Shown here one piece after another: positions 22,440-30,855 of a DNA stretch of 64,000 nt. The DNA is from Sphingobacteriaceae bacterium (GTDB lineage Bacteria; Bacteroidota; Bacteroidia; UBA7662). The stretch is from assembly GCA_013824115.1 (NCBI GenBank), contig PNNG01000027.1, forward strand, positions 20,425-84,424, written 5' to 3'. Position 1 is the first letter of the stretch, and each line of letters opens with the position of its first letter. A program made the translations under genes and the position numbers. Below the pieces are notes generated by a model. It made no database searches, had not been told where the DNA came from, and was given only the letters and a program-made list of their open reading frames with translations.

Positions 22440-24122
22440 ATGTCAACGCTTTCTACCGCAAAACTGAACATGGCCGAACATCCAACGCCCACCGGAACGC
22501 AACTCAATTGCAAAGGCTGGGTGCAGGAAGCGGCTTTGCGCATGTTGCACAACAACCTCGATCCTGAAGTGGCCGAGCGCCCCGAGGACCTGATTGTGTA
22601 CGGCGGTCGCGGTAAAGCCGCCCGCAACGTAGAAGCATTTGAGTTGATTGTGAAGGCTTTGAAAGATTTGAACGAAGACGAAACCCTGCTCGTGCAAAGC
22701 GGCAAACCGGTGGGCATTTTGCCTACCCACAAAGACGCTCCCCGGGTGGTGATTTCGAACTCTATGTTGGTGCCGAATTGGGCCAATTGGGAGCATTTTG
22801 ATGAGCTCGACAAAAAAGGACTGATGATGTACGGCCAAATGACGGCCGGTAGCTGGATTTACATCGGTTCGCAAGGCATTGTACAGGGTACCTACGAAAC
22901 CTTCAATGCAGTAGCCGACAAACACTTCGGCGGTTCGCTCAAAGGCAAACTTTGCGTGACGGCCGGTTTAGGAGGCATGGGTGGCGCTCAGCCCTTGGCC
23001 ATCACCATGGCCGACGGTGTGTGCTTGGCCGCAGAAGTAGAGGAGTGGCGCGCCCAAAAGCGTGTAGAAACCCGCTACCTCGATTTGATTGAACACGACA
23101 TCGACAAAGCCATTGACCTGGCACTTGATTTTTGCAAAAAAGGCGAGAATAAGAGCATCGGCGTGATTTGCACCGCCGTTGATTTGCTCGATCGCCTCAA
23201 CCAGCGCGGTATTGTACCCGATGTACTCACCGACCAAACCTCAGCCCACGATCCATTGGTGGGTTACATTCCACAAGGCATGACCAACGAGCAGGCCAAC
23301 GTATTGCGTGAAGCCGACCAGGAGGCCTACCTCAAAGCTGCCTATGCTGCCATGCGCCGCCATACCGAATTGATGGTGGAGCTGCAGGCCAAAGGCGCCA
23401 TCACCTTCGATTACGGCAACAACCTCCGCGGCCGCGCCCTCGAAGCCGGTTATACCCACGCTTTCGATTTCCCCGGTTTTGTACCCGCTTATATCCGCCC
23501 ACTTTTCTGCGAAGGCAAAGGTCCGTTCCGCTGGGCAGCCCTTTCAGGCGATCCTGAAGATATTCGGGTAACCGACGAGCTCATGCTCGAGCTTTTCCCC
23601 AACGACAAAGGCCTGCACCGCTGGATCAAAATGGCACAAGAACGCATTGCTTTCCAGGGTTTGCCGGCACGTATTTGCTGGATTGGTCAAGGCGACCGTG
23701 AAAAAGCTGGTTTGGCCTTCAACGAATTGGTACGCACAGGTAAGGTTAAAGCGCCCATTGTAATTGGCCGCGACCACCTCGATACCGGCTCGGTGGCTTC
23801 ACCCAACCGCGAAACCGAAGCCATGCTCGACGGTTCTGACGCCGTTGCCGACTGGCCAGTGCTCAACGCCCTCATCAATACTGCCGGCGGCGCCAGCTGG
23901 GTAAGCTTGCACCACGGCGGTGGGGTTGGCATGGGTTACTCCATCCACTCAGGCATGGTGATCGTAGCCGACGGCACCGACGATGCAGCCCGCCGCCTCA
24001 AGCGTGTGCTCCACAACGACCCCGCCATGGGTGTTATCCGCCACATGGATGCCGGCTATGACATTGCTAAGGATACGGCGCGGAAGCACCGGTTGGATAT
24101 CAGGGAGAGGTTGAAGAGTTGA
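22440..24122 (+). CDS. hutU: Urocanate hydratase
   Basis: 560 aa. The N-terminus and its internal NAD-binding Rossmann region are conserved throughout, as in urocanases. Confidence 0.95.
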
Positions 24123-24129
24123 TTTGAAA

Positions 24130-27100
24130 CTATTCGAACGAATTAGAAGCTGAGAATAAGACCCTTTCTTGTGAGTCTATTCGTTGTATTTCTGACTTTC
24201 TGCTAGAGTATAAGTTTTTCAATTTTGGGAATAACTTGAGATCGTGCTGGTCCAAAATTCTCTTTAGATCTTCAAAAATGGGTTCTCGTTTAACAAGAAT
24301 TTCGAGCTTTGTTTCTTGCCCAAAAGTAGGGACCCTTGTTAATTCATTTACCATGGATTCTAGCATTAATTCTTTATTCAAAGTGCTTTCAATAAGCATT
24401 TTGCCTCTTGCTGTCAAGTGAATAGAATCTGTTTCTATTCTAAACCATTGGATTTCCTCCACAATTTTTGGGAGTCTAATTTCAGTTTTCAGTTGTATCC
24501 AATTAAGTAGCATAATTGGCTTAATTTGATCGCTATTTATGAATTGGGATTTTATTCCAGGTCTAGACCATATCAATTGATTCCAATCCGTATCGAAGTA
24601 CTTAGTTAGTGCAATTTTTGGCCATTTTTTCTCAATAGCCTTTATTGAAAAACTAGTTGCGGAATAAACGCCAATGGCAGTATTTAGTGCTTCACAAAGT
24701 AAATCCAATGCTTTGATTGCCCAATTTTGAAGCATTGTTGAGTCAAGAATTTCAATAAACTGAGATAAATCGTAGTCCTTAATTTCAGTTTGTTCAGTTT
24801 TGGATTCGAACGGAATCCCAAAAAACAATTCAGCGACTGGAATATGAAATTTAGAGGGAAAATAAAAGTCTTGCTGTCTACAATTATATATAGCAAATTC
24901 AAATGTGATGTGTTTGAGCTGTTCGGAGTCGATGATTAAAGTCCAAACCTGATCTTTAAATGGATTTGAAAAATCACTAGAATTGGCAAGAACTCTTTTA
25001 ACGAAATACATAAAGTCCTCCTTTGTGTGTATAAGCTTCTCGATACCATATAGAATTCTATCCCTGTCCTTGAGGAAAAGTACGCGATCAAGCCATATAC
25101 TATGGAAATTTTTCTTCACACTTTCAAAGTCAATTAAATTCTCTGAAAATTCAGTTTCCTTTTCAGGACAAGTTTCGTGTATCCCTCGTATGCAACCATG
25201 AAAAAAGTCGCTGAGCGATAACTCGCTCGTTTTTTCTATTAAAGAAGTCAACTCGCCAATGGCTGAAGCGGACTCTGAAGTTGAAAAAAAGCCTTTTCCT
25301 ATGTAATGGTAGAAATAAGGTGCTTGCTTGCCTGGTTCTGAGAGTTTTGAAGCGAGTTGCGAAATGGTAAATCCTGCTTGGAACCACCTTATACCCAAAT
25401 TCAGTTGATATTGTCCGTTTTCTATGCGTTCAACTGTTTCTTCATCGGTATTGATTTGGAATGCAAAATTGTATGCCTCTTGGAATTTTTGAATGACATA
25501 GACATCGATTTCATCATCTAAAGTTTTAGGCCCATATTCGATTTTAAGGGCAAGCAGTTCTGCTAACTTCGGGTGATTATTCTGTTTTGCCCCATAGAGA
25601 TCTTTAATGGTTCTCAGTACTCCTGCCCATCCCCAAAACCAAAAGCCACTTTTGGCTATTTCACCACCAATCAAAACGAATTTAGAAAAGTAGTTCTCTT
25701 GGTTAAAATTATATTCCAATGCATTAGCCAATGATTTACCTATCTCTTGTTTTGATTCAGGGAAGTTGTTTTGTAATGACTCTATAAACATTAAACAGTG
25801 ATTTATCCAATCATCATACTCTGTTTGATATCGGGGAATAAAGCCATAATCCCTTATTTCATTGCCAAATGGAGCGAGATGATTGCCAGTCACATAACCA
25901 AAATATAAGAGGTTATCGAACAATTTGAAAATCAAATCCTTATTTGACTCATAATCATTTGATAAATCATTAAGGAATTTCAAACGAGTGGATACATGAG
26001 CCTGTGTATTGGAAAGTCTGCTTCGAAACAAGCTTTTTAAGTCCCCTCTTCCTTGTAGCTTTTTTAGATCAAATTTTTCGTGAATTTCGATTTTAAGAAT
26101 GCAATGAGCGCATTCGATGAAGTATTTATCTTCATAGGCAATCTGTACCAATGACTGGTGAAATTGACTCAACAATTTTGTAGTAACTCGTTTTTCACAA
26201 AGCAGTTCCTTGATTTTCATCAAGCTAATGTCCTTATCAAGAGGTATTATGTAGTTTAGTTGTTTTCCAAGCTCATAATCCCAATTTGGAAGAAGTAATT
26301 GCTCGCGATTTTGTTCCCACCAATGGTTGGATAATTCTTGAAAATTCATCTCGGATGACATTTCAAAGCACCTTTTTAGGAGAGAAGTGATTAGTCTATC
26401 TGCATCTAGTTCCTTAAGTTTCTTGTAAATATTTAGCGGACTAATAATCCTGAATGCCTCGAAGCAATAGTGATTTGCCAACGGGACAGGAAGTAATGCA
26501 TGCCAGGTGCCTCTTTGCTGAACAACGTCATGGTCTTTCAATGATTCCAATAATCTTCTGGCATGAAGAGGATTCTCTAAAAACAAATTGCACAATACAT
26601 CAAATTCAGAAGGGTTTTCATCTTGTACATCGAATGAAAATACTACAGAAATGAGTTGCAAGACTTGCTCGCTTTGTTGAAGCTTTGGGTTATTTGAAAG
26701 TAGTTTCAATACAAACTTACGATCGCTGAGCTTACTCCAGCTCTTTGTTTGCTTTCTGATGCCATTCAACAGAAAGTTCGACAATCTAAAGTTTCCATCG
26801 GCTAAAGTTATTATTCTTGAAGATATGCTGCTATGCATGCCAAGTCTACCTTCAATAAATTTATTTATTGCGCCATCTGAAGCTCTTTTTAGCCAAACAA
26901 TGTTTGATACCGAATCTTGTTTTTCAGAGACATCTAAATTTATTGTTACTAACCTTAGTGGTTTTAATTCAGAACTAGTGATTTTAGCCTCTAGTTCCTT
27001 GTGGAGTTCATGACTACAGTTGTCTATTACAACTACACTATTCTTGTTAATAGCAAGTAATTCATCTACAAGATGCTTAGGATGAGGATTCGCAATGCCT

Positions 27101-27921
27101 TCGTCATCGGTATAGAATATATCATTGATTATAATTGATTCATTACCGCTATAATTTTTGAATATTTCTTCAACGAATCTGCTTTTGCCAACCCCTGATT
27201 GCCCTATTACGCGAATTGCTGAAACGACATTTAATTGATTACGAAAGGCTAAAATGGCTTCTTTAGTATTATACTCAAGATTATTATTAAATCCTATAAA
27301 TGCAACCCTTGAATTTTCCAAATCCTCGATAAAATCAATATTCTCGTTGTTCAAGGACCATTGGCCTCTAGGCTTCCATCCATTCGTAGAAATTCCAAGT
27401 TTAGATTTAACCCAGAGCTGAACTTCAGTGTGATAATTCAACCATTTTTGGATATCGTGCAAATCGAAATAATCGCATTGCTCTGAGGGCGCGTTATAAA
27501 ATTCTAGCATGCAATTTTTCAGCGCAATGGATTTGGATTCTTTGGAGCTCCGAGATTTACAAACCAAAACATATTTGCCAGAATTCTGCTGTATTAAAGA
27601 TTCAATTTTTGGATATGTTTTACCTTTTAATAGTACTGCAGATCTAATTTTTCCTTGACTTAAATTAAAAGCCTTTACTTGAAATCCAATTATCTTATCA
27701 CGGAGAAATTGGTTCAAGGGTTCTGTAGAAGAATCTAGATTAAACATTATATCGATTCCACCATCCTTAGCCTTTGTCGATTCCCCGTATTCAGTAGATC
27801 TTGTAGAATGACCATTTTTCCTTGCTTCGGCATCGCAAAGTCGTCCTACCAAATCTTCAAAATCGTCTTCAGATAAAAGTTTTAATTGCTCAATTGAAAC
27901 ATCAAATGACGGTATGCTCAT
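24130..27921 (-). CDS. Large (1263-aa) three-part protein: N-terminal Mrr-like PD-(D/E)xK nuclease, P-loop NTPase, long helical C-terminal region; candidate antiviral STAND/Avs-like defence protein
   Basis: N-terminal FEDLVGRLC...KDGGIDIM...IGFQVKAF resembles the Mrr catalytic core (DGGID...QxK). Walker A VIGQSGVGKS is at 27181-27204. Walker B-like SVVVIDN follows. About 900 aa of low-complexity helical sequence comes after. The gene sits in a ~35% GC island. Confidence 0.55.
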   Translation of the reverse strand: MSIPSFDVSIEQLKLLSEDDFEDLVGRLCDAEARKNGHSTRSTEYGESTKAKDGGIDIMFNLDSSTEPLNQFLRDKIIGFQVKAFNLSQGKIRSAVLLKGKTYPKIESLIQQNSGKYVLVCKSRSSKESKSIALKNCMLEFYNAPSEQCDYFDLHDIQKWLNYHTEVQLWVKSKLGISTNGWKPRGQWSLNNENIDFIEDLENSRVAFIGFNNNLEYNTKEAILAFRNQLNVVSAIRVIGQSGVGKSRFVEEIFKNYSGNESIIINDIFYTDDEGIANPHPKHLVDELLAINKNSVVVIDNCSHELHKELEAKITSSELKPLRLVTINLDVSEKQDSVSNIVWLKRASDGAINKFIEGRLGMHSSISSRIITLADGNFRLSNFLLNGIRKQTKSWSKLSDRKFVLKLLSNNPKLQQSEQVLQLISVVFSFDVQDENPSEFDVLCNLFLENPLHARRLLESLKDHDVVQQRGTWHALLPVPLANHYCFEAFRIISPLNIYKKLKELDADRLITSLLKRCFEMSSEMNFQELSNHWWEQNREQLLLPNWDYELGKQLNYIIPLDKDISLMKIKELLCEKRVTTKLLSQFHQSLVQIAYEDKYFIECAHCILKIEIHEKFDLKKLQGRGDLKSLFRSRLSNTQAHVSTRLKFLNDLSNDYESNKDLIFKLFDNLLYFGYVTGNHLAPFGNEIRDYGFIPRYQTEYDDWINHCLMFIESLQNNFPESKQEIGKSLANALEYNFNQENYFSKFVLIGGEIAKSGFWFWGWAGVLRTIKDLYGAKQNNHPKLAELLALKIEYGPKTLDDEIDVYVIQKFQEAYNFAFQINTDEETVERIENGQYQLNLGIRWFQAGFTISQLASKLSEPGKQAPYFYHYIGKGFFSTSESASAIGELTSLIEKTSELSLSDFFHGCIRGIHETCPEKETEFSENLIDFESVKKNFHSIWLDRVLFLKDRDRILYGIEKLIHTKEDFMYFVKRVLANSSDFSNPFKDQVWTLIIDSEQLKHITFEFAIYNCRQQDFYFPSKFHIPVAELFFGIPFESKTEQTEIKDYDLSQFIEILDSTMLQNWAIKALDLLCEALNTAIGVYSATSFSIKAIEKKWPKIALTKYFDTDWNQLIWSRPGIKSQFINSDQIKPIMLLNWIQLKTEIRLPKIVEEIQWFRIETDSIHLTARGKMLIESTLNKELMLESMVNELTRVPTFGQETKLEILVKREPIFEDLKRILDQHDLKLFPKLKNLYSSRKSEIQRIDSQERVLFSASNSFE

Positions 27922-28011: not shown

Positions 28012-29568
28012 TCACTCCACCACCAACTTCTGCGTCTCCACCTTACCGCCAGCATTCAGTTGTACGAGGTAAGTGCCCGAAGCCAACTGGCTGCTATTGA
28101 AAGGCACCAAATGCTGGCCGGGTTCGAATTTACCGGCACGCAGTTCAGCCACCTCGCGGCCGCGTAAATCAACCACCGAAAGACGGATGTCGGCCGTTTG
28201 GTTGAGCTGGAAACCGATGTTCAGCTCGCCACGGGCTGGGTTGGGATAAATGGGATACAATTTGGTTTGCAGCTTCAAAATGCCGGTTCTGTCCTCGGTG
28301 CTTAAGGCGATGTTTTCATCTCCAGCCTGGTAGGGCACATAACCAAAGTAGCAGAGGTACATTTCATCGGTGGTGCCTTCGCCCCAGGTAATTTGCTGAG
28401 GTGGGTTATTCGGGTTGTTCGGATTGCTGGCCCGGTTGTCGTAGGTGGCCTCGGCATATATCCACGTATTGGCGGGCAGGCGAATGAGGCGGGGGAAATA
28501 GTAAAATCCCTGCCAGTTGAAATCCCACTGCGGAATATTGATGAGGTTCACCGTATCGTTGCCCGGCCGCACGGCATATACTTTCCAATCGGTACCAATG
28601 AGGTGGCTGTGCGGAAAAATGCTGAGCAGCGATACCTCACTGGGTACCCTAAAACGGCCGCGGAAAGTGCGTACTTGATTGGCAGGAATCACAAAGGGAC
28701 CGTTCATCAAATTCAAAGGCGAAATCTCGGTAATTTGCTCCAACCTGGTCACTTGATTATTGCGGTCGTAGAAAATGTTGATGCTGCTCGAGTCGAGTTC
28801 AGGCAGCGACGAAGGAGCGTAGTGCATCTGCACCAGCACGTCGGCACCTGCAGGGAGCTGTTTGCCAATATTCGACGGAAAATACTTGGCAGCCGCACCT
28901 GGCGCCCAGCCGTACCAATTGTCTTCAGTAGGCGTAAAACCAAAGCCAAAAAACTGGGTGTAGCCGTAACCGGGGTCCAAACTATCGCGCTGGCGACCTT
29001 GACCGGTGAGGTCTATGCCCAAAATGGCATGGTGAACTACTTTTTTATTGCCGGCCCTGAATTCAATGGCCTTGATTTTTTTGGTTTCATTGAGGTTTGT
29101 GGGCAATACAAACACCCGGTACATATCGGTATTGTTGCCTTGGTGCAGGTACGATTGGGCCATCGAAATCACCGTATCGGGTTGCCCCAACTGCGAGCCG
29201 CTGGGGTAATTGGGCAGGGGAGGTTCGGCAGCAGGATTGCCCCGTTGGGCGCCTTGTTGCACCCAATCGACAATGGTTTGTACTTCTTGCTGGCTTAACA
29301 CACGCTCACCCAACAAATGGCTGTAGTTGGGGTCGGGCTGCCAAGGCGGCATATAGCGCGTTTGCACCGTAAACGAAATCATGCTCGCATAGGCCGATGC
29401 CTCCTGGTAATTGGTGAAGGGCATGGGGCCAATTTCACCAGGTCGGTGGCAGGGCGTACAATGCTGGTAAACGATGCTGGCTACTTGTCCGGCCCAAGTT
29501 ACCTGAGCTTGTATCTGGGTGAACAGGCCACTAAAAAGCAGTGCACCACAAAGCAGTAATTTCTTCAT
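28012..29568 (-). CDS. Secreted fusion protein: N-terminal mono-haem cytochrome c (CXXCH), PHM/DBH-like copper monooxygenase core, T9SS C-terminal sorting domain
   Basis: Signal peptide; HCTPCH haem motif. Cu-site-like motifs VVHHAILG, HYAP, HSHLIG and TDEMYLCYFGY (compare PHM HHM / HxH / DEMCN). C-terminal ...YPNP...GTYLVQL...KLVVE sorting domain. Confidence 0.55.
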   Translation of the reverse strand: MKKLLLCGALLFSGLFTQIQAQVTWAGQVASIVYQHCTPCHRPGEIGPMPFTNYQEASAYASMISFTVQTRYMPPWQPDPNYSHLLGERVLSQQEVQTIVDWVQQGAQRGNPAAEPPLPNYPSGSQLGQPDTVISMAQSYLHQGNNTDMYRVFVLPTNLNETKKIKAIEFRAGNKKVVHHAILGIDLTGQGRQRDSLDPGYGYTQFFGFGFTPTEDNWYGWAPGAAAKYFPSNIGKQLPAGADVLVQMHYAPSSLPELDSSSINIFYDRNNQVTRLEQITEISPLNLMNGPFVIPANQVRTFRGRFRVPSEVSLLSIFPHSHLIGTDWKVYAVRPGNDTVNLINIPQWDFNWQGFYYFPRLIRLPANTWIYAEATYDNRASNPNNPNNPPQQITWGEGTTDEMYLCYFGYVPYQAGDENIALSTEDRTGILKLQTKLYPIYPNPARGELNIGFQLNQTADIRLSVVDLRGREVAELRAGKFEPGQHLVPFNSSQLASGTYLVQLNAGGKVETQKLVVE

Positions 29569-29594
29569 ACAACGGCTTGAAAATCAAATATAAC

Positions 29595-30092
29595 TTACTG
29601 GGCGCTATTCAGCAAACAACCTACCGCGCGGGTTTCGGTGTAGGGGACTTCCACATTTCGTGAAAGTTTAAGCAATACCTCTTCCAATTCATTGGTGCTA
29701 GCCCTTGCCTTTCGTTTACCGGGGGCGGTGTAATGGTCGTCGATGCGGCCACGGTACTTCATGCGGCCTTTGTTGTCTTTCACCACCACCTCCGGAGTAA
29801 CTTCTACACCATACACTTTGCTGAAGACCAGTTTTTGGTCCATGCGGATTTGCATGGCCAAATCGTGTCGCAACAAAAAGTTAATGGCCGAGGTATCGCT
29901 CGACATCTTGTTAGGAAACACCGCCACCCAACGCACGTCATCGCCAAATTTGGCTTGTAAGTCACGCAATTTGGGGGTGTAGTACTGGCAAACCGGACAG
30001 CTTTCGGATAAGAACACAAAAACCGTGGTTTTTTGCGCCATTGCAGACGAAAAACCCAAAATCAGGAGCCATACGAACAGGTATTTCTTCAT
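29595..30092 (-). CDS. Thioredoxin-fold thiol:disulfide oxidoreductase (TlpA/redoxin-like), secreted
   Basis: Signal peptide plus a CPVC active-site motif. It lies 26 bp upstream of the cytochrome/monooxygenase gene on the same strand. Confidence 0.6.
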   Translation of the reverse strand: MKKYLFVWLLILGFSSAMAQKTTVFVFLSESCPVCQYYTPKLRDLQAKFGDDVRWVAVFPNKMSSDTSAINFLLRHDLAMQIRMDQKLVFSKVYGVEVTPEVVVKDNKGRMKYRGRIDDHYTAPGKRKARASTNELEEVLLKLSRNVEVPYTETRAVGCLLNSAQ

Positions 30093-30178
30093 GGTCGGTA
30101 AGCCGAAGTTAAGGTCTTTGGCAGTTGCTTGTTTGCCAACTTTGCGCTTTTCTCTAAAATTAATGAGCCTTTAATGCC

Positions 30179-30855
30179 TCAGTCGGCTTTCAGCCAAATT
30201 TCGGGATGTTCCCAAGGGCTTTCTATGGCCATTTGAATGGCTTCGGCTACTGCTTTAGGTTCAAGCACTCCAGGGCGTGGGCCTTGCGGTTGTTTGTTGT
30301 TGAAATAGGTATTCACCAATCCCGGATACAGGTTACAAACCGATATGTTGCTGCCTTCCAATTCTGCCTGCAAACTGCCAAACATGCCATCTTGCGCAAA
30401 TTTGGTAGCGCAATAGGCTGTTCCTCCTGCAAAGGTGCGGCGTCCGGCTTTACAAAAACGCCGGCGTTTTGGGCCTTGAAATGGGGGAGGACGGATTGGG
30501 TGAGTGCAAAGCCGGCAAAAACATTCAGCTGAAATAGCTCCATCATTTCCTTGACCGAAATGTTTTCCATTGGCCCAAATTTGCCCATGCCTGCGTTGTT
30601 CACCAGCACATCTATGCGTTCGAAATGGGCCACAATCTGTTTAATGACGGAGGAAAGATTTTCGGATTGGGTCAGGTCGACTTCTAGAATGAGGTACTGG
30701 CCTTGGGCTAATCCAGCATCTTTCACCAACTGCTGCATCTCACTGCCATTTCGGGCCAGCAAGGCCAATCGATAGCCCTTGGCACCCAACAAACGTACTG
30801 TGGCTGCACCAATGCCTCGGGAAGCACCACTAACAACAACTACTTCCGGTCTCAT
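30179..30855 (-). pseudogene. Short-chain dehydrogenase/reductase (SDR) gene disrupted by a frameshift
   Basis: The N-terminal ORF has GASRGIG and NNAG. The catalytic ...AGRRTFAGGTAYCATKFAQDGMFGSLQAE (YxxxK) is readable only in a different frame across ~30395-30410. The C-terminus resumes in the 30179-30385 ORF. Confidence 0.5.

What the first reader, a model, noticed from the sequence alone, without database searches (positions are those of the whole stretch)
28012..30092. Secreted cytochrome c – PHM-like copper monooxygenase fusion with T9SS signal, preceded by a thioredoxin-like gene
One 518-aa protein combines a CXXCH haem-binding motif (HCTPCH) near the N-terminus with motifs strikingly like the two copper sites of peptidylglycine alpha-hydroxylating monooxygenase and dopamine beta-hydroxylase. 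The CuH-like motifs are VVHHAILG and HYAP. The CuM-like motifs are HSHLIG and TDEMYLCYFGY, against PHM TDEMCN.Y. It also has a T9SS C-terminal sorting domain. A co-oriented CPVC thioredoxin-fold protein lies 26 bp upstream. A haem domain fused as intramolecular electron donor to a type-2 copper monooxygenase exported to the cell surface would be an unusual extracellular oxidative enzyme.
Basis: partly seen in the sequence, partly recalled or inferred. Interest (0 to 1): 0.55.

Follow-up and report, generated by a model that had tools for sequence, protein, structure and literature searches.

The report
Bacterial haem-copper monooxygenase with redoxin partner
This gene encodes a secreted bacterial relative of the animal copper enzymes that make noradrenaline and amidated peptide hormones, fused to its own haem electron-carrier domain and paired with a thiol-redox protein; it belongs to a very large family that appears never to have been studied.

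Summary
On the minus strand, a 165-aa redoxin gene (29595-30092) lies 26 bp upstream of a 518-aa gene (28012-29568). The 518-aa protein has a signal peptide, a CxxCH/Met cytochrome c domain, a two-domain PHM/DBH-type copper core and a T9SS sorting tail.

- Foldseek ranks PHM and human DBH first (E ~1e-12).
- hhalign places all six copper ligands on PHM's (H179/H180/H249 = H107/H108/H172; H320/H322/M403 = H242/H244/M314).
- These ligands, CxxCH and Met73 are invariant in 38 homologues and at least 96% conserved in 150 diverse representatives.

New findings:
- The catalytic core alone finds 7,852 clusters (50% identity), so the family is very large.
- The cytochrome domain is present in essentially all full-length members among the 150 closest representatives.
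- The redoxin is adjacent in 64 of 80 Bacteroidota loci and fused in 16 of 150 representatives, at either end.
- The redoxin is not a classical CxxC thioredoxin. It belongs to the uncharacterised 2CVB/2YWI family, with an invariant N-terminal Cys and C-terminal Gly-Cys.
- PHM's peptide-binding Arg240 is absent, so the enzyme is not a peptide amidase.

The likely mechanism is haem-to-CuH-to-CuM electron relay driving O2-dependent hydroxylation of an unknown substrate. The redoxin's role is unresolved. I found no bacterial member in the literature.

The parts
29595..30092 (-). Redoxin partner gene (165 aa). It has a Sec signal peptide and a TlpA/peroxiredoxin-like thioredoxin fold, with invariant Cys32 (CPVC at 29988-29999), a cis-Pro (T99-P100), the Y113-x-G-R-I-D motif (29739-29756) and a C-terminal Gly158-Cys159 (Cys at 29616-29618).
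   Evidence: ORF. Redoxin 36.6 bits, AhpC-TSA 32.1 bits; conservation, with the second Cys of CxxC not conserved. PDB 2CVB E=7.7e-23, 2YWI 2.4e-19, 3U5R 6e-15; adjacent to the monooxygenase gene in 64 of 80 loci.
29569..29594 (-). 26-bp intergenic spacer between the two co-oriented genes. They are probably co-transcribed.
   Evidence: Terminator-like sites in the region are at the chance level, and none lies in the spacer.
28012..29568 (-). Gene for the 518-aa multidomain protein: signal peptide, cytochrome c domain, linker, CuH domain, CuM domain and T9SS C-terminal domain.
29506..29568 (-). Sec signal peptide (residues 1-21). Predicted cleavage is before the invariant Gln22.
   Evidence: The sequence MKKLLLCGALLFSGLFTQIQA|Q and the invariance of Q22. 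The cleavage site is inferred.
29254..29505 (-). Mono-haem c-type cytochrome domain (residues ~22-105). C37-x-x-C40-H41 lies at 29446-29463. The candidate distal ligand Met73, in YMPPW, lies at 29341-29355.
   Evidence: invariant C37, C40, H41 and M73-P-P-W. Cytochrome_CBB3 in 35 of 38 members; all-alpha, helices 25-41, 54-70 and 93-104. CxxCH in 125-127 of 127 and Met in 135 of 136 representatives; no significant PDB sequence match.
29176..29253 (-). Conserved Pro/Gly-rich interdomain linker (residues 106-131, consensus PxFPxGSQLGxPD).
   Evidence: invariant P119, G124, S125, G128, P130, D131. (no regular secondary structure).
28759..29175 (-). CuH-type beta-sandwich domain (residues ~132-270). 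The His3 site is H179 and H180 (VVHHAILG, 29017-29040) plus H249 (HYAP, 28813-28824). Q247 aligns with PHM Q170.
   Evidence: hhalign to PHM H107/H108/H172; fold; conservation; Cu2_monooxygen above the gathering score in relatives.
28309..28758 (-). CuM-type beta-sandwich domain (residues ~271-420). The His2Met site is H320 and H322 (HSHLIG, 28594-28611) plus M403 (TDEMYLCYFGY, 28339-28371). It also carries an invariant W348-D-F-N-W352-Q353 motif.
   Evidence: Cu2_monoox_C 24.3 bits against 23; aligned to PHM H242/H244/M314; fold; conservation.
28015..28251 (-). Type A T9SS C-terminal sorting domain (residues 440-518).
   Evidence: Por_Secre_tail 48.6 bits; TIGR04183 47.3 bits; 38 of 38 homologues; matches to solved T9SS CTD structures 8glk_D and 8glj_D.

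Best explanation
The locus encodes a two-gene oxidative module.

Gene 2 (28012-29568, minus strand) makes a Sec-exported, T9SS-sorted enzyme. A mono-haem c-type cytochrome domain (His41/Met73 axial ligands) is tethered by a conserved Pro-rich linker to a non-coupled binuclear copper monooxygenase core of the PHM/DBH type. That core has a CuH site (His179, His180, His249) and a CuM site (His320, His322, Met403).

Proposed mechanism, by analogy with PHM/DBH:
- O2 binds reduced CuM and the Cu-oxygen species abstracts a C-H hydrogen from the substrate.
- The second electron comes from CuH.
- The products are a hydroxylated substrate and water.
- Both coppers must be re-reduced by one electron each per turnover. 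Here the fused cytochrome c domain, a one-electron carrier, takes the place of free ascorbate as the entry point to CuH.

The substrate is unknown. It is not peptidyl-glycine, because PHM's carboxylate anchor Arg240 is absent. The T9SS tail predicts that the enzyme acts at the cell surface or outside the cell.

Gene 1 (29595-30092) encodes a periplasmic redoxin of the 2CVB/2YWI family, with an invariant Cys32/Cys159 pair. It is a dedicated but lineage-specific accessory. Its most likely role for a T9SS-exported enzyme is in periplasmic maturation: keeping the CxxCH thiols reduced for haem attachment, or handling Cu(I). The alternative is a thiol-based electron input to the haem.

Shown here: the architecture, the fold, ligand identity and conservation, and gene linkage and fusion. 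Inferred: cofactor loading, the direction of electron flow, monooxygenase chemistry, localisation and the partner's role.
For: Fold: an AF2 model (pLDDT 83.9) matches ~30 PHM entries and human DBH first, at E ~1e-12, ~305 aligned columns and TM 0.57-0.66 on the target.

Ligands: hhalign of the family profile against the true PHM chain gives E=1.4e-5 and aligns H179/H180 with H107/H108, H249 with H172, H320/H322 with H242/H244 and M403 with M314. Q247 aligns with Q170. All are invariant in 38 homologues and at least 96% conserved in 150 representatives of 34-56% identity.

Pfam: Cu2_monoox_C is above the gathering score here and hits 34 of 38 members. Cu2_monooxygen is above it in three relatives. 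Cytochrome_CBB3 hits 35 of 38 members and is above the gathering score in P0145.

The cytochrome domain is constant in this clade. Of the 150 closest representatives, 136 carry it and the rest are mostly N-terminally truncated fragments.

T9SS tail. Longer relatives insert Ig/PKD spacers before the tail, as cell-surface cargo typically does.

Partner linkage: the redoxin is adjacent in 64 of 80 genome loci (59 upstream, 5 downstream) and no other neighbour is conserved. It is fused in 16 of 150 representatives, at the N-terminus in 14 and the C-terminus in 2. The 13 N-terminal fusions that were aligned keep C32, the cis-Pro, YxGRIDD, the C-terminal GC, CxxCH, MPPW and all six Cu ligands.

Against: - No cofactor content or activity is known for any member.
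- The window protein itself is below Pfam's gathering score for Cu2_monooxygen (13.4 against 30) and for Cytochrome_CBB3 (17.7 against 27).
- HMMER profile searches against PDB sequences do not reach PHM/DBH or any cytochrome significantly.
- The haem-to-CuH distance could not be measured because model coordinates are not exposed. pTM is only 0.63, and the loops around residues 43-47 and 74-88 (which include Met73) are low-confidence.
- A surface-exposed enzyme has no obvious source of electrons for its haem.
- The periplasmic partner has no T9SS tail (lengths 157-201 aa), so it cannot accompany the enzyme after export. This argues against a catalytic-cycle role in this lineage.
- Conversely, permanent fusion in other phyla is unusual for a pure maturation factor.
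- Four of four stand-alone periplasmic relatives have no adjacent redoxin.
Confidence: 0.6

Rival explanations
1. The redoxin is a catalytic electron-input module, not a maturation factor. Reducing equivalents brought across the inner membrane (for example through a CcdA/DsbD-type system) reduce the Cys32/Cys159 pair. The pair reduces the haem, and the haem reduces CuH and CuM. This would be a thiol-to-haem-to-copper relay that replaces ascorbate.
For: The redoxin, cytochrome c and copper core occur in a single polypeptide in 16 of 150 representatives, with the redoxin fused independently at either end. All redox residues are kept in the 13 N-terminal fusions that were aligned. Permanent fusion fits a role in every turnover better than a one-off maturation role. 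The partner has an invariant Cys pair, and its structural relative 2YWI is described as having a C-terminal 'resolving' cysteine (PMC3091736). The gene pair is tightly linked.
Against: In this window's lineage the enzyme carries a T9SS tail and the partner does not. The two would therefore be separated by the outer membrane after export. Direct thiol-to-haem c electron transfer without a flavin or metal mediator is unusual (general knowledge). Stand-alone periplasmic relatives lack an adjacent redoxin. No CcdA/DsbD gene is conserved nearby.
Confidence: 0.25
2. The protein binds haem and copper but is not a C-H hydroxylase. It would act instead as an oxidase or electron-transfer protein, for example an O2-dependent thiol oxidase that uses the redoxin as its substrate or shuttle, or a scavenger of reactive oxygen species at the cell surface.
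For: No substrate-binding residues of PHM are kept. R240 aligns with F318 and is never Arg in 150 representatives, and N316 aligns with a hydrophobic residue. No substrate-related gene is conserved nearby. The only conserved partner is a thiol protein.
Against: The complete His3 plus His2Met ligand set, the conserved Gln that aligns with PHM Q170, and the two-domain cleft architecture are those of the monooxygenase family. The redoxin is absent next to stand-alone forms, so it cannot be the universal substrate.
Confidence: 0.12
3. It is a conventional bacterial orthologue of PHM or DBH that uses a small-molecule reductant such as ascorbate. The CxxCH region would be structural or vestigial.
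For: One homologue (P0042) is named 'ascorbate-dependent monooxygenase' by NCBI. The Pfam families carry that name.
Against: CxxCH and Met73 are as conserved as the copper ligands across 150 diverse representatives, and the domain is present in essentially all full-length members of that set. This is not the pattern of a vestige. PHM's peptide-carboxylate anchor R240 is missing. None of PHM's disulfide cysteines is conserved: the only invariant Cys are C37 and C40.
Confidence: 0.03

Closest known systems
Peptidylglycine alpha-hydroxylating monooxygenase (PHM; catalytic core of rat PAM, PDB 1PHM, 1SDW, 4E4Z)
   Same: The two-beta-sandwich fold is the top Foldseek hit at E ~1e-12. All six copper ligands and Q170 align, with similar spacing between ligands.
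   Different: - Only 15-18% identity, and HMMER profiles do not connect the two.
- The substrate anchors R240 and N316 are not kept.
- No conserved disulfides.
- It has an N-terminal cytochrome c domain and a T9SS tail instead of the PAL domain and membrane anchor.
- It is bacterial.
Dopamine beta-hydroxylase / tyramine beta-hydroxylase / MOXD1 (human DBH, PDB 4ZEL)
   Same: The same catalytic core, also among the top Foldseek hits. Like DBH, it has an extra N-terminal domain in front of the CuH domain. DBH's DOMON domain has the fold of a haem-binding cytochrome domain (PMC4846438).
   Different: DBH's DOMON domain is a beta-sandwich with no haem ligands. Here the N-terminal domain is an all-alpha CxxCH c-type cytochrome. 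There is no dimerisation domain.
Cellobiose dehydrogenase cytochrome domain feeding lytic polysaccharide monooxygenases (CDH-LPMO)
   Same: Works like it (inference): a mobile haem domain on a flexible linker delivers single electrons to an extracellular copper oxygenase.
   Different: CDH uses a haem b DOMON-type domain and a flavin dehydrogenase as its electron source. LPMOs have a single-copper histidine brace. There is no homology to either, and this is a functional analogy only.
2CVB/2YWO (Thermus), 2YWI (Geobacillus) and 3U5R: uncharacterised peroxiredoxin-like / thioredoxin-like structural-genomics proteins
   Same: The partner protein is a clear homologue (E=7.7e-23, 2.4e-19 and 6e-15). 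It shares the single conserved N-terminal Cys, TPEV, the YxGRxDD motif and the C-terminal GC(T/S)I motif.
   Different: Those proteins are stand-alone and their function is unknown. Here the redoxin is genetically coupled or fused to a haem-copper enzyme.
ResA / CcmG / TlpA / StoA periplasmic thiol-disulfide oxidoreductases (cytochrome c and CuA maturation)
   Same: The same broad TlpA-like redoxin fold and periplasmic location. They give weaker matches (E ~1e-8). They set a precedent for a dedicated redoxin that reduces CxxCH or copper-site cysteines.
   Different: Those families depend on a strict CxxC. Here the second Cys is dispensable and a C-terminal Cys is invariant.

Membership tests
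Copper type II ascorbate-dependent monooxygenases (PHM/DBH/TBH; Pfam PF01082 + PF03712) | Two-domain beta-sandwich catalytic core | tested here: met
   The AF2 model (pLDDT 83.9) shows two beta domains at 132-267 and 278-412. Foldseek ranks PHM and DBH first at E ~1e-12 over ~305 columns.
Copper type II ascorbate-dependent monooxygenases (PHM/DBH/TBH; Pfam PF01082 + PF03712) | CuH site: HH...H (PHM H107, H108, H172) | tested here: met
   H179, H180 and H249 align to them. They are invariant in 38 homologues and kept in 138/144, 140/144 and 149/150 representatives.
Copper type II ascorbate-dependent monooxygenases (PHM/DBH/TBH; Pfam PF01082 + PF03712) | CuM site: HxH...M (PHM H242, H244, M314) | tested here: met
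   H320, H322 and M403 align to them. They are invariant in 38 homologues and kept in 148/150, 148/150 and 148/149 representatives.
Copper type II ascorbate-dependent monooxygenases (PHM/DBH/TBH; Pfam PF01082 + PF03712) | Scores above Pfam's gathering thresholds for both domains | tested here: inconclusive
   PF03712 scores 24.3 against 23, which is met but marginal. PF01082 scores 13.4 against 30, which is not met in the window protein. PF01082 is met in relatives: P0234 31.3, P0197 32.9, P0218 34.1.
Copper type II ascorbate-dependent monooxygenases (PHM/DBH/TBH; Pfam PF01082 + PF03712) | Binds two Cu atoms, uses ascorbate as reductant and hydroxylates a C-H bond | not testable with these tools
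   This needs metal analysis and enzymology.
PHM proper (EC 1.14.17.3, peptidylglycine hydroxylation) | Substrate carboxylate anchors R240, N316 and Y318 | tested here: not met
   R240 aligns with F318 and the position is A/F/T/L/S/Y, never Arg, in 150 representatives. N316 aligns with L405 (hydrophobic). Only Y318 has an aromatic counterpart, Y407/F.
PHM proper (EC 1.14.17.3, peptidylglycine hydroxylation) | Conserved intradomain disulfides | tested here: not met
   The only invariant cysteines in the family are C37 and C40 of CxxCH.
Class I c-type cytochromes (Pfam Cytochrome_CBB3 / Cytochrom_C) | CxxCH haem-attachment motif | tested here: met
   C37, C40 and H41 are invariant and kept in 125/126, 127/127 and 127/127 covering representatives.
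Class I c-type cytochromes (Pfam Cytochrome_CBB3 / Cytochrom_C) | Distal Met ligand before a C-terminal helix, in a small all-alpha fold | tested here: met
   M73-P-P-W is invariant and Met is kept in 135/136 representatives. The model has helices 25-41, 54-70 and 93-104, but the Met loop is low-confidence.
Class I c-type cytochromes (Pfam Cytochrome_CBB3 / Cytochrom_C) | Profile score above the gathering threshold | tested here: inconclusive
   The window protein scores 17.7 against 27. 35 of 38 homologues hit at E<0.1, with a best of 5e-6. P0145 scores 34.1. There is no significant PDB sequence match.
Class I c-type cytochromes (Pfam Cytochrome_CBB3 / Cytochrom_C) | Covalently bound haem | not testable with these tools
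   This needs haem staining or a pyridine haemochrome assay.
T9SS type A cargo | C-terminal sorting domain (PF18962 / TIGR04183) plus an N-terminal Sec signal | tested here: met
   48.6 bits against 27 and 47.3 bits against 23. Present in 38 of 38 homologues. The signal peptide is seen in the sequence.
T9SS type A cargo | T9SS machinery in the same genome, and actual secretion | not tested
   The homologues come from Bacteroidota. The window was not searched for T9SS genes.
Classical thioredoxin / TlpA-ResA thiol-disulfide oxidoreductases (partner protein) | Conserved CxxC dithiol active site | tested here: not met
   CPVC is present in the window protein. Across 63 orthologues and 13 fusions the second position is mostly Ser/Thr (or Ala).
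2CVB/2YWI peroxiredoxin-like redoxin family (partner protein) | Sequence homology plus an invariant N-terminal Cys and a C-terminal Gly-Cys | tested here: met
   E=7.7e-23 to 2CVB with aligned C, TPEV, YxGRxDD and GC motifs. C32, G158 and C159 are invariant.

The most novel reading that the evidence does not exclude
The redoxin, the cytochrome c domain and the binuclear copper core form a self-contained thiol-to-haem-to-copper electron relay. This would be a protein-based replacement for the ascorbate/cytochrome b561 supply line of animal PHM and DBH. It would let bacteria run PHM-type C-H hydroxylation in the periplasm or at the cell surface on a substrate class not yet known, possibly a polymer or a cell-envelope or environmental compound.
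Probability: 0.25. Interest if true: 0.8.

Novelty: new variant of a known kind. Interest (0 to 1): 0.62.

Why it matters
PHM, DBH and TBH are the textbook non-coupled binuclear copper monooxygenases. They are generally treated as eukaryotic: a comparative-genomics review lists PHM and DBM only under eukaryotic cuproproteins (PMC7435645). All 40 open-access papers that use the family names concern animals.

Here the catalytic core retrieves 7,852 clusters at 50% identity from public genomes and metagenomes; the members whose origin was seen here are bacterial. In the 150 closest representatives the core is joined to a c-type cytochrome in essentially every full-length member. Often it is also joined to a redoxin or a T9SS tail.

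If the biochemistry holds, this would matter in four ways:
- It gives disulfide-free, unglycosylated bacterial models for a mechanistically debated enzyme class. How electrons cross from CuH to CuM is still discussed for this class.
- It shows a protein-based electron supply in place of ascorbate.
- It opens a search for new extracellular oxidative chemistry in soil and aquatic Bacteroidota and in Planctomycetota.
- It assigns a first functional context to the orphan 2CVB/2YWI redoxin family.

Current annotations ('T9SS sorting domain protein', 'redoxin domain-containing protein', 'peroxiredoxin') hide the copper enzyme.

Tried and rejected
- Single-sequence and family-profile HMMER searches against PDB sequences found only T9SS tail structures, not PHM or DBH. 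The relationship needed Pfam profiles, hhalign and a fold search.
- A profile of the cytochrome domain alone found nothing significant in the PDB. The best hits were the hydrazine synthase haem domain (E 0.19) and cytochrome c552 (E 0.97).
- Model coordinates are not exposed, so haem-CuH and CuH-CuM distances could not be measured.
- The AF2 model of the partner was too poor (pLDDT 61) to use, so the proximity of Cys32 and Cys159 is untested.
- I looked for a third conserved gene around the pair in 80 loci and found none. The only other recurrent 'ORF' is an antisense shadow inside the monooxygenase gene.
- Contexts of two fused forms varied: Pyr_redox_2 and GH44 neighbours in one, a second redoxin in the other. 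They gave no consistent clue to the substrate or the electron source.
- Extra domains in longer relatives are Ig/PKD spacers, plus one Kunitz domain, and say nothing about the substrate.
- Eight literature searches found no bacterial member described.
- I considered and rejected a true peroxiredoxin for the partner, because there is no conserved Thr/Ser at position -3 from the Cys (by inspection).
- I considered and rejected a peptide-amidating PHM orthologue, because R240 is absent.
- I considered and rejected the downstream 1,263-aa gene as part of the system. It is a low-GC PD-Lambda-4-type defence gene that is not conserved next to homologues.


Full report
**1. Observation**

Two co-oriented ORFs lie on the minus strand. 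One is a 165-aa ORF at 29595-30092. The other is a 518-aa ORF at 28012-29568. They are separated by 26 bp.

- HCTPCH at residues 36-41
- VVHHAILG at 177-184
- HYAP at 249-252
- HSHLIG at 320-325
- TDEMYLCYFGY at 400-410
- CPVC at residues 32-35 of the upstream protein

The C-terminal 80 residues are an unambiguous type A T9SS sorting domain. Por_Secre_tail scores 48.6 bits against a cutoff of 27, and TIGR04183 scores 47.3 against 23. Terminator-like and promoter-like matches in the region are at the chance level, and none lies in the 26-bp spacer.

**2. Is it a PHM/DBH-type copper enzyme?**

*Pfam.* The window protein scores 24.3 bits on Cu2_monoox_C against a gathering score of 23. It scores only 13.4 on Cu2_monooxygen (cutoff 30) and 17.7 on Cytochrome_CBB3 (cutoff 27). 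By itself this is marginal.

*Homologues.* A homologue search returned more than 2,531 proteins, mostly from Bacteroidota such as Hymenobacter, Saprospiraceae and Flavobacteriales. Almost all are named only 'T9SS type A sorting domain-containing protein', and one is named 'ascorbate-dependent monooxygenase'.

*Conservation.* In an alignment of 38 homologues (46-76% identity) only 68 of 518 columns are invariant. They include C37, C40, H41, M73-P-P-W, H179, H180, Q247, H249, H320, H322 and M403.

*Pfam across the family.* Across these 38 proteins, Cytochrome_CBB3 hits 35 and Cu2_monoox_C hits 34. In more distant relatives each domain passes its gathering score. Cu2_monooxygen scores 31.3, 32.9 and 34.1, and Cytochrome_CBB3 scores 34.1.

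*Fold.* An AlphaFold2 model (mean pLDDT 83.9) shows four elements in order: a helical N-terminal domain, two beta-sandwich domains and a beta-sandwich tail. Foldseek against the PDB ranks about 30 PHM entries and human dopamine beta-hydroxylase first. These hits have E 9e-13 to 4e-8, about 305 aligned columns and TM 0.57-0.66 on the target. The next hits are unrelated, at E > 1e-5.

*Ligand correspondence.* I recovered the true PHM chain (4E4Z_A) from the PDB and aligned the family profile to it with hhalign (E=1.4e-5).
- H179/H180 fall on H107/H108.
- H249 falls on H172.
- H320/H322 fall on H242/H244.
- In the extended alignment, M403 falls on M314.
- Q247 falls on Q170.

Each ligand is kept in at least 96% of the sequences that cover it.

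*What it is not.* PHM's peptide-carboxylate anchor R240 aligns with F318, and the position is never Arg in 150 representatives. N316 aligns with a hydrophobic residue. None of PHM's disulfide cysteines is conserved. So the protein has the catalytic machinery of the family but is not a peptidylglycine hydroxylase.

**3. The haem domain**

Residues ~22-105 are all-alpha, with helices at 25-41, 54-70 and 93-104. CxxCH sits at the end of the first helix. An invariant Met73-Pro-Pro-Trp precedes the last helix. From general knowledge, this is the layout of small class I cytochromes c.

There is no significant PDB sequence match. The best weak hits are themselves haem c domains.

Among the 150 best representatives of the catalytic core, 136 carry this domain. 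The rest are mostly N-terminally truncated fragments. Its ligands are as conserved as the copper ligands. Within this set the cytochrome plus the copper core is the constant unit.

**4. The upstream gene**

*What family it belongs to.* It scores above threshold on Redoxin and AhpC-TSA, but it is not a classical CxxC thioredoxin.
- In 63 orthologues Cys32 is invariant, while the second Cys is Ser or Thr in most.
- A C-terminal Gly158-Cys159, a cis-Pro and Y-x-G-R-I-D are conserved.
- Its profile matches the uncharacterised structural-genomics proteins 2CVB/2YWO (E=7.7e-23), 2YWI (2.4e-19) and 3U5R (6e-15), with the same motifs.
- ResA and StoA-type oxidoreductases match only at about 1e-8.
- A 2010 paper notes that 2YWI's C-terminal Cys is a possible resolving cysteine (PMC3091736).

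*Linkage to the monooxygenase.*
- The redoxin gene is adjacent in 64 of 80 genome loci: 59 directly upstream and co-oriented, 5 directly downstream. Three of the 16 loci without a hit are cut at the contig edge.
- No other neighbour is conserved.
- Among the 150 representatives, 14 have the architecture redoxin - cytochrome c - core and 2 have cytochrome c - core - redoxin.
- The 13 N-terminal fusions that were aligned keep every signature of all three modules.
- Sources name the fusions 'redoxin domain-containing protein [Planctomycetota]', 'peroxiredoxin' or 'peroxiredoxin/mono/diheme cytochrome c family protein'.

Fusion at either end, mirrored by the two gene orders, is strong evidence of a functional link.

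*A limit on that link.* Four of four stand-alone periplasmic relatives have no redoxin next door. The redoxin is therefore a lineage-specific accessory, not a universal component.

**5. Mechanism (inferred)**

By homology, the core should activate O2 at CuM (His2Met) and draw the second electron from CuH (His3). It therefore needs two single electrons per turnover. A covalently tethered one-electron haem carrier on a conserved Pro-rich linker, placed in front of the CuH domain, is most simply read as the electron entry point that ascorbate provides in animals.

The closest functional analogy is the cytochrome domain of cellobiose dehydrogenase feeding LPMO copper. Notably, DBH's own N-terminal DOMON domain has that cytochrome fold (PMC4846438).

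The partner's role is unresolved. For this T9SS-exported enzyme the partner has no sorting tail and would stay in the periplasm. This favours a pre-export role, such as keeping the CxxCH thiols reduced or handling Cu(I). The only conserved cysteines in the enzyme are those of CxxCH. The permanent fusions in other phyla favour a role in each turnover, as a thiol-to-haem electron input. I rate maturation somewhat higher for this locus and keep the relay as the most novel reading.

The source of electrons for a surface-exposed enzyme, and its substrate, remain unknown. Extra domains in relatives are only Ig/PKD spacers.

**6. Novelty**

The catalytic core alone finds 7,852 clusters at 50% identity with E <= 1e-3, of which 1,128 have E <= 1e-30. 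Eight literature searches found no bacterial member described. A metalloproteome review lists PHM and DBM only under eukaryotes (PMC7435645).

The enzyme class is known and Pfam recognises the domains, so this is not a new kind. It is an uncharacterised, very large bacterial variant with three features of its own: a built-in cytochrome, T9SS export and a dedicated orphan-family redoxin. I classify it as a new variant of a known kind, with interest 0.62.

**7. Limits**

- There is no cofactor or activity evidence.
- The partner model was poor.

Noticed in passing
window 24130-27921 (minus strand): A 1,263-aa gene lies 90 bp downstream of the monooxygenase gene in a low-GC island (GC 0.35-0.36, against about 0.50 around it). 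It matches the PADLOC anti-phage defence model PD-Lambda-4_A at E=2.1e-98. It is not conserved next to the monooxygenase in 80 related loci. It looks like a horizontally acquired defence gene inserted between the pair and the gene at 22440-24122.
   Followed up: partly
window 30093-30855 (minus strand): The short-chain dehydrogenase ORF (180 aa) matches only positions 2-132 of 195 in the adh_short profile. The rest of the enzyme, including the catalytic Y-C-A-T-K motif, continues in a different reading frame. This is a frameshift: either a pseudogene or a sequencing or assembly error.
   Followed up: partly
window 29506-29508 (Gln22 of the enzyme) and about 30033-30035 (Gln20 of the redoxin): Both proteins have Gln immediately after the predicted signal-peptidase site, and Gln22 is invariant in 38 homologues. 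From memory, this fits the reported Bacteroidetes 'Q-rule' of N-terminal pyroglutamate on exported proteins. It was not tested.
   Followed up: no
P0145 (1,064 aa), P0155, P0156, P0180 (related proteins, not in the window): Some relatives carry tandem duplications (cytochrome c - core - cytochrome c - core, or two core matches), and P0145 ends in EF-hand motifs. The family's architecture is more varied than the window's version.
   Followed up: no
L081:2324-7749: One fused redoxin - cytochrome c - copper protein (P0184) sits between a split pyridine-nucleotide disulfide oxidoreductase gene and a GH44 glycoside hydrolase gene. This is a single case but could hint at a thiol-reductant supply and a polysaccharide-related role.
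   Followed up: no
window 28393-29298 (plus strand): A 301-aa antisense ORF lies inside the monooxygenase gene. It recurs in 27 related loci. It is most likely a shadow ORF caused by the codon composition of the sense gene, not a gene.
   Followed up: partly
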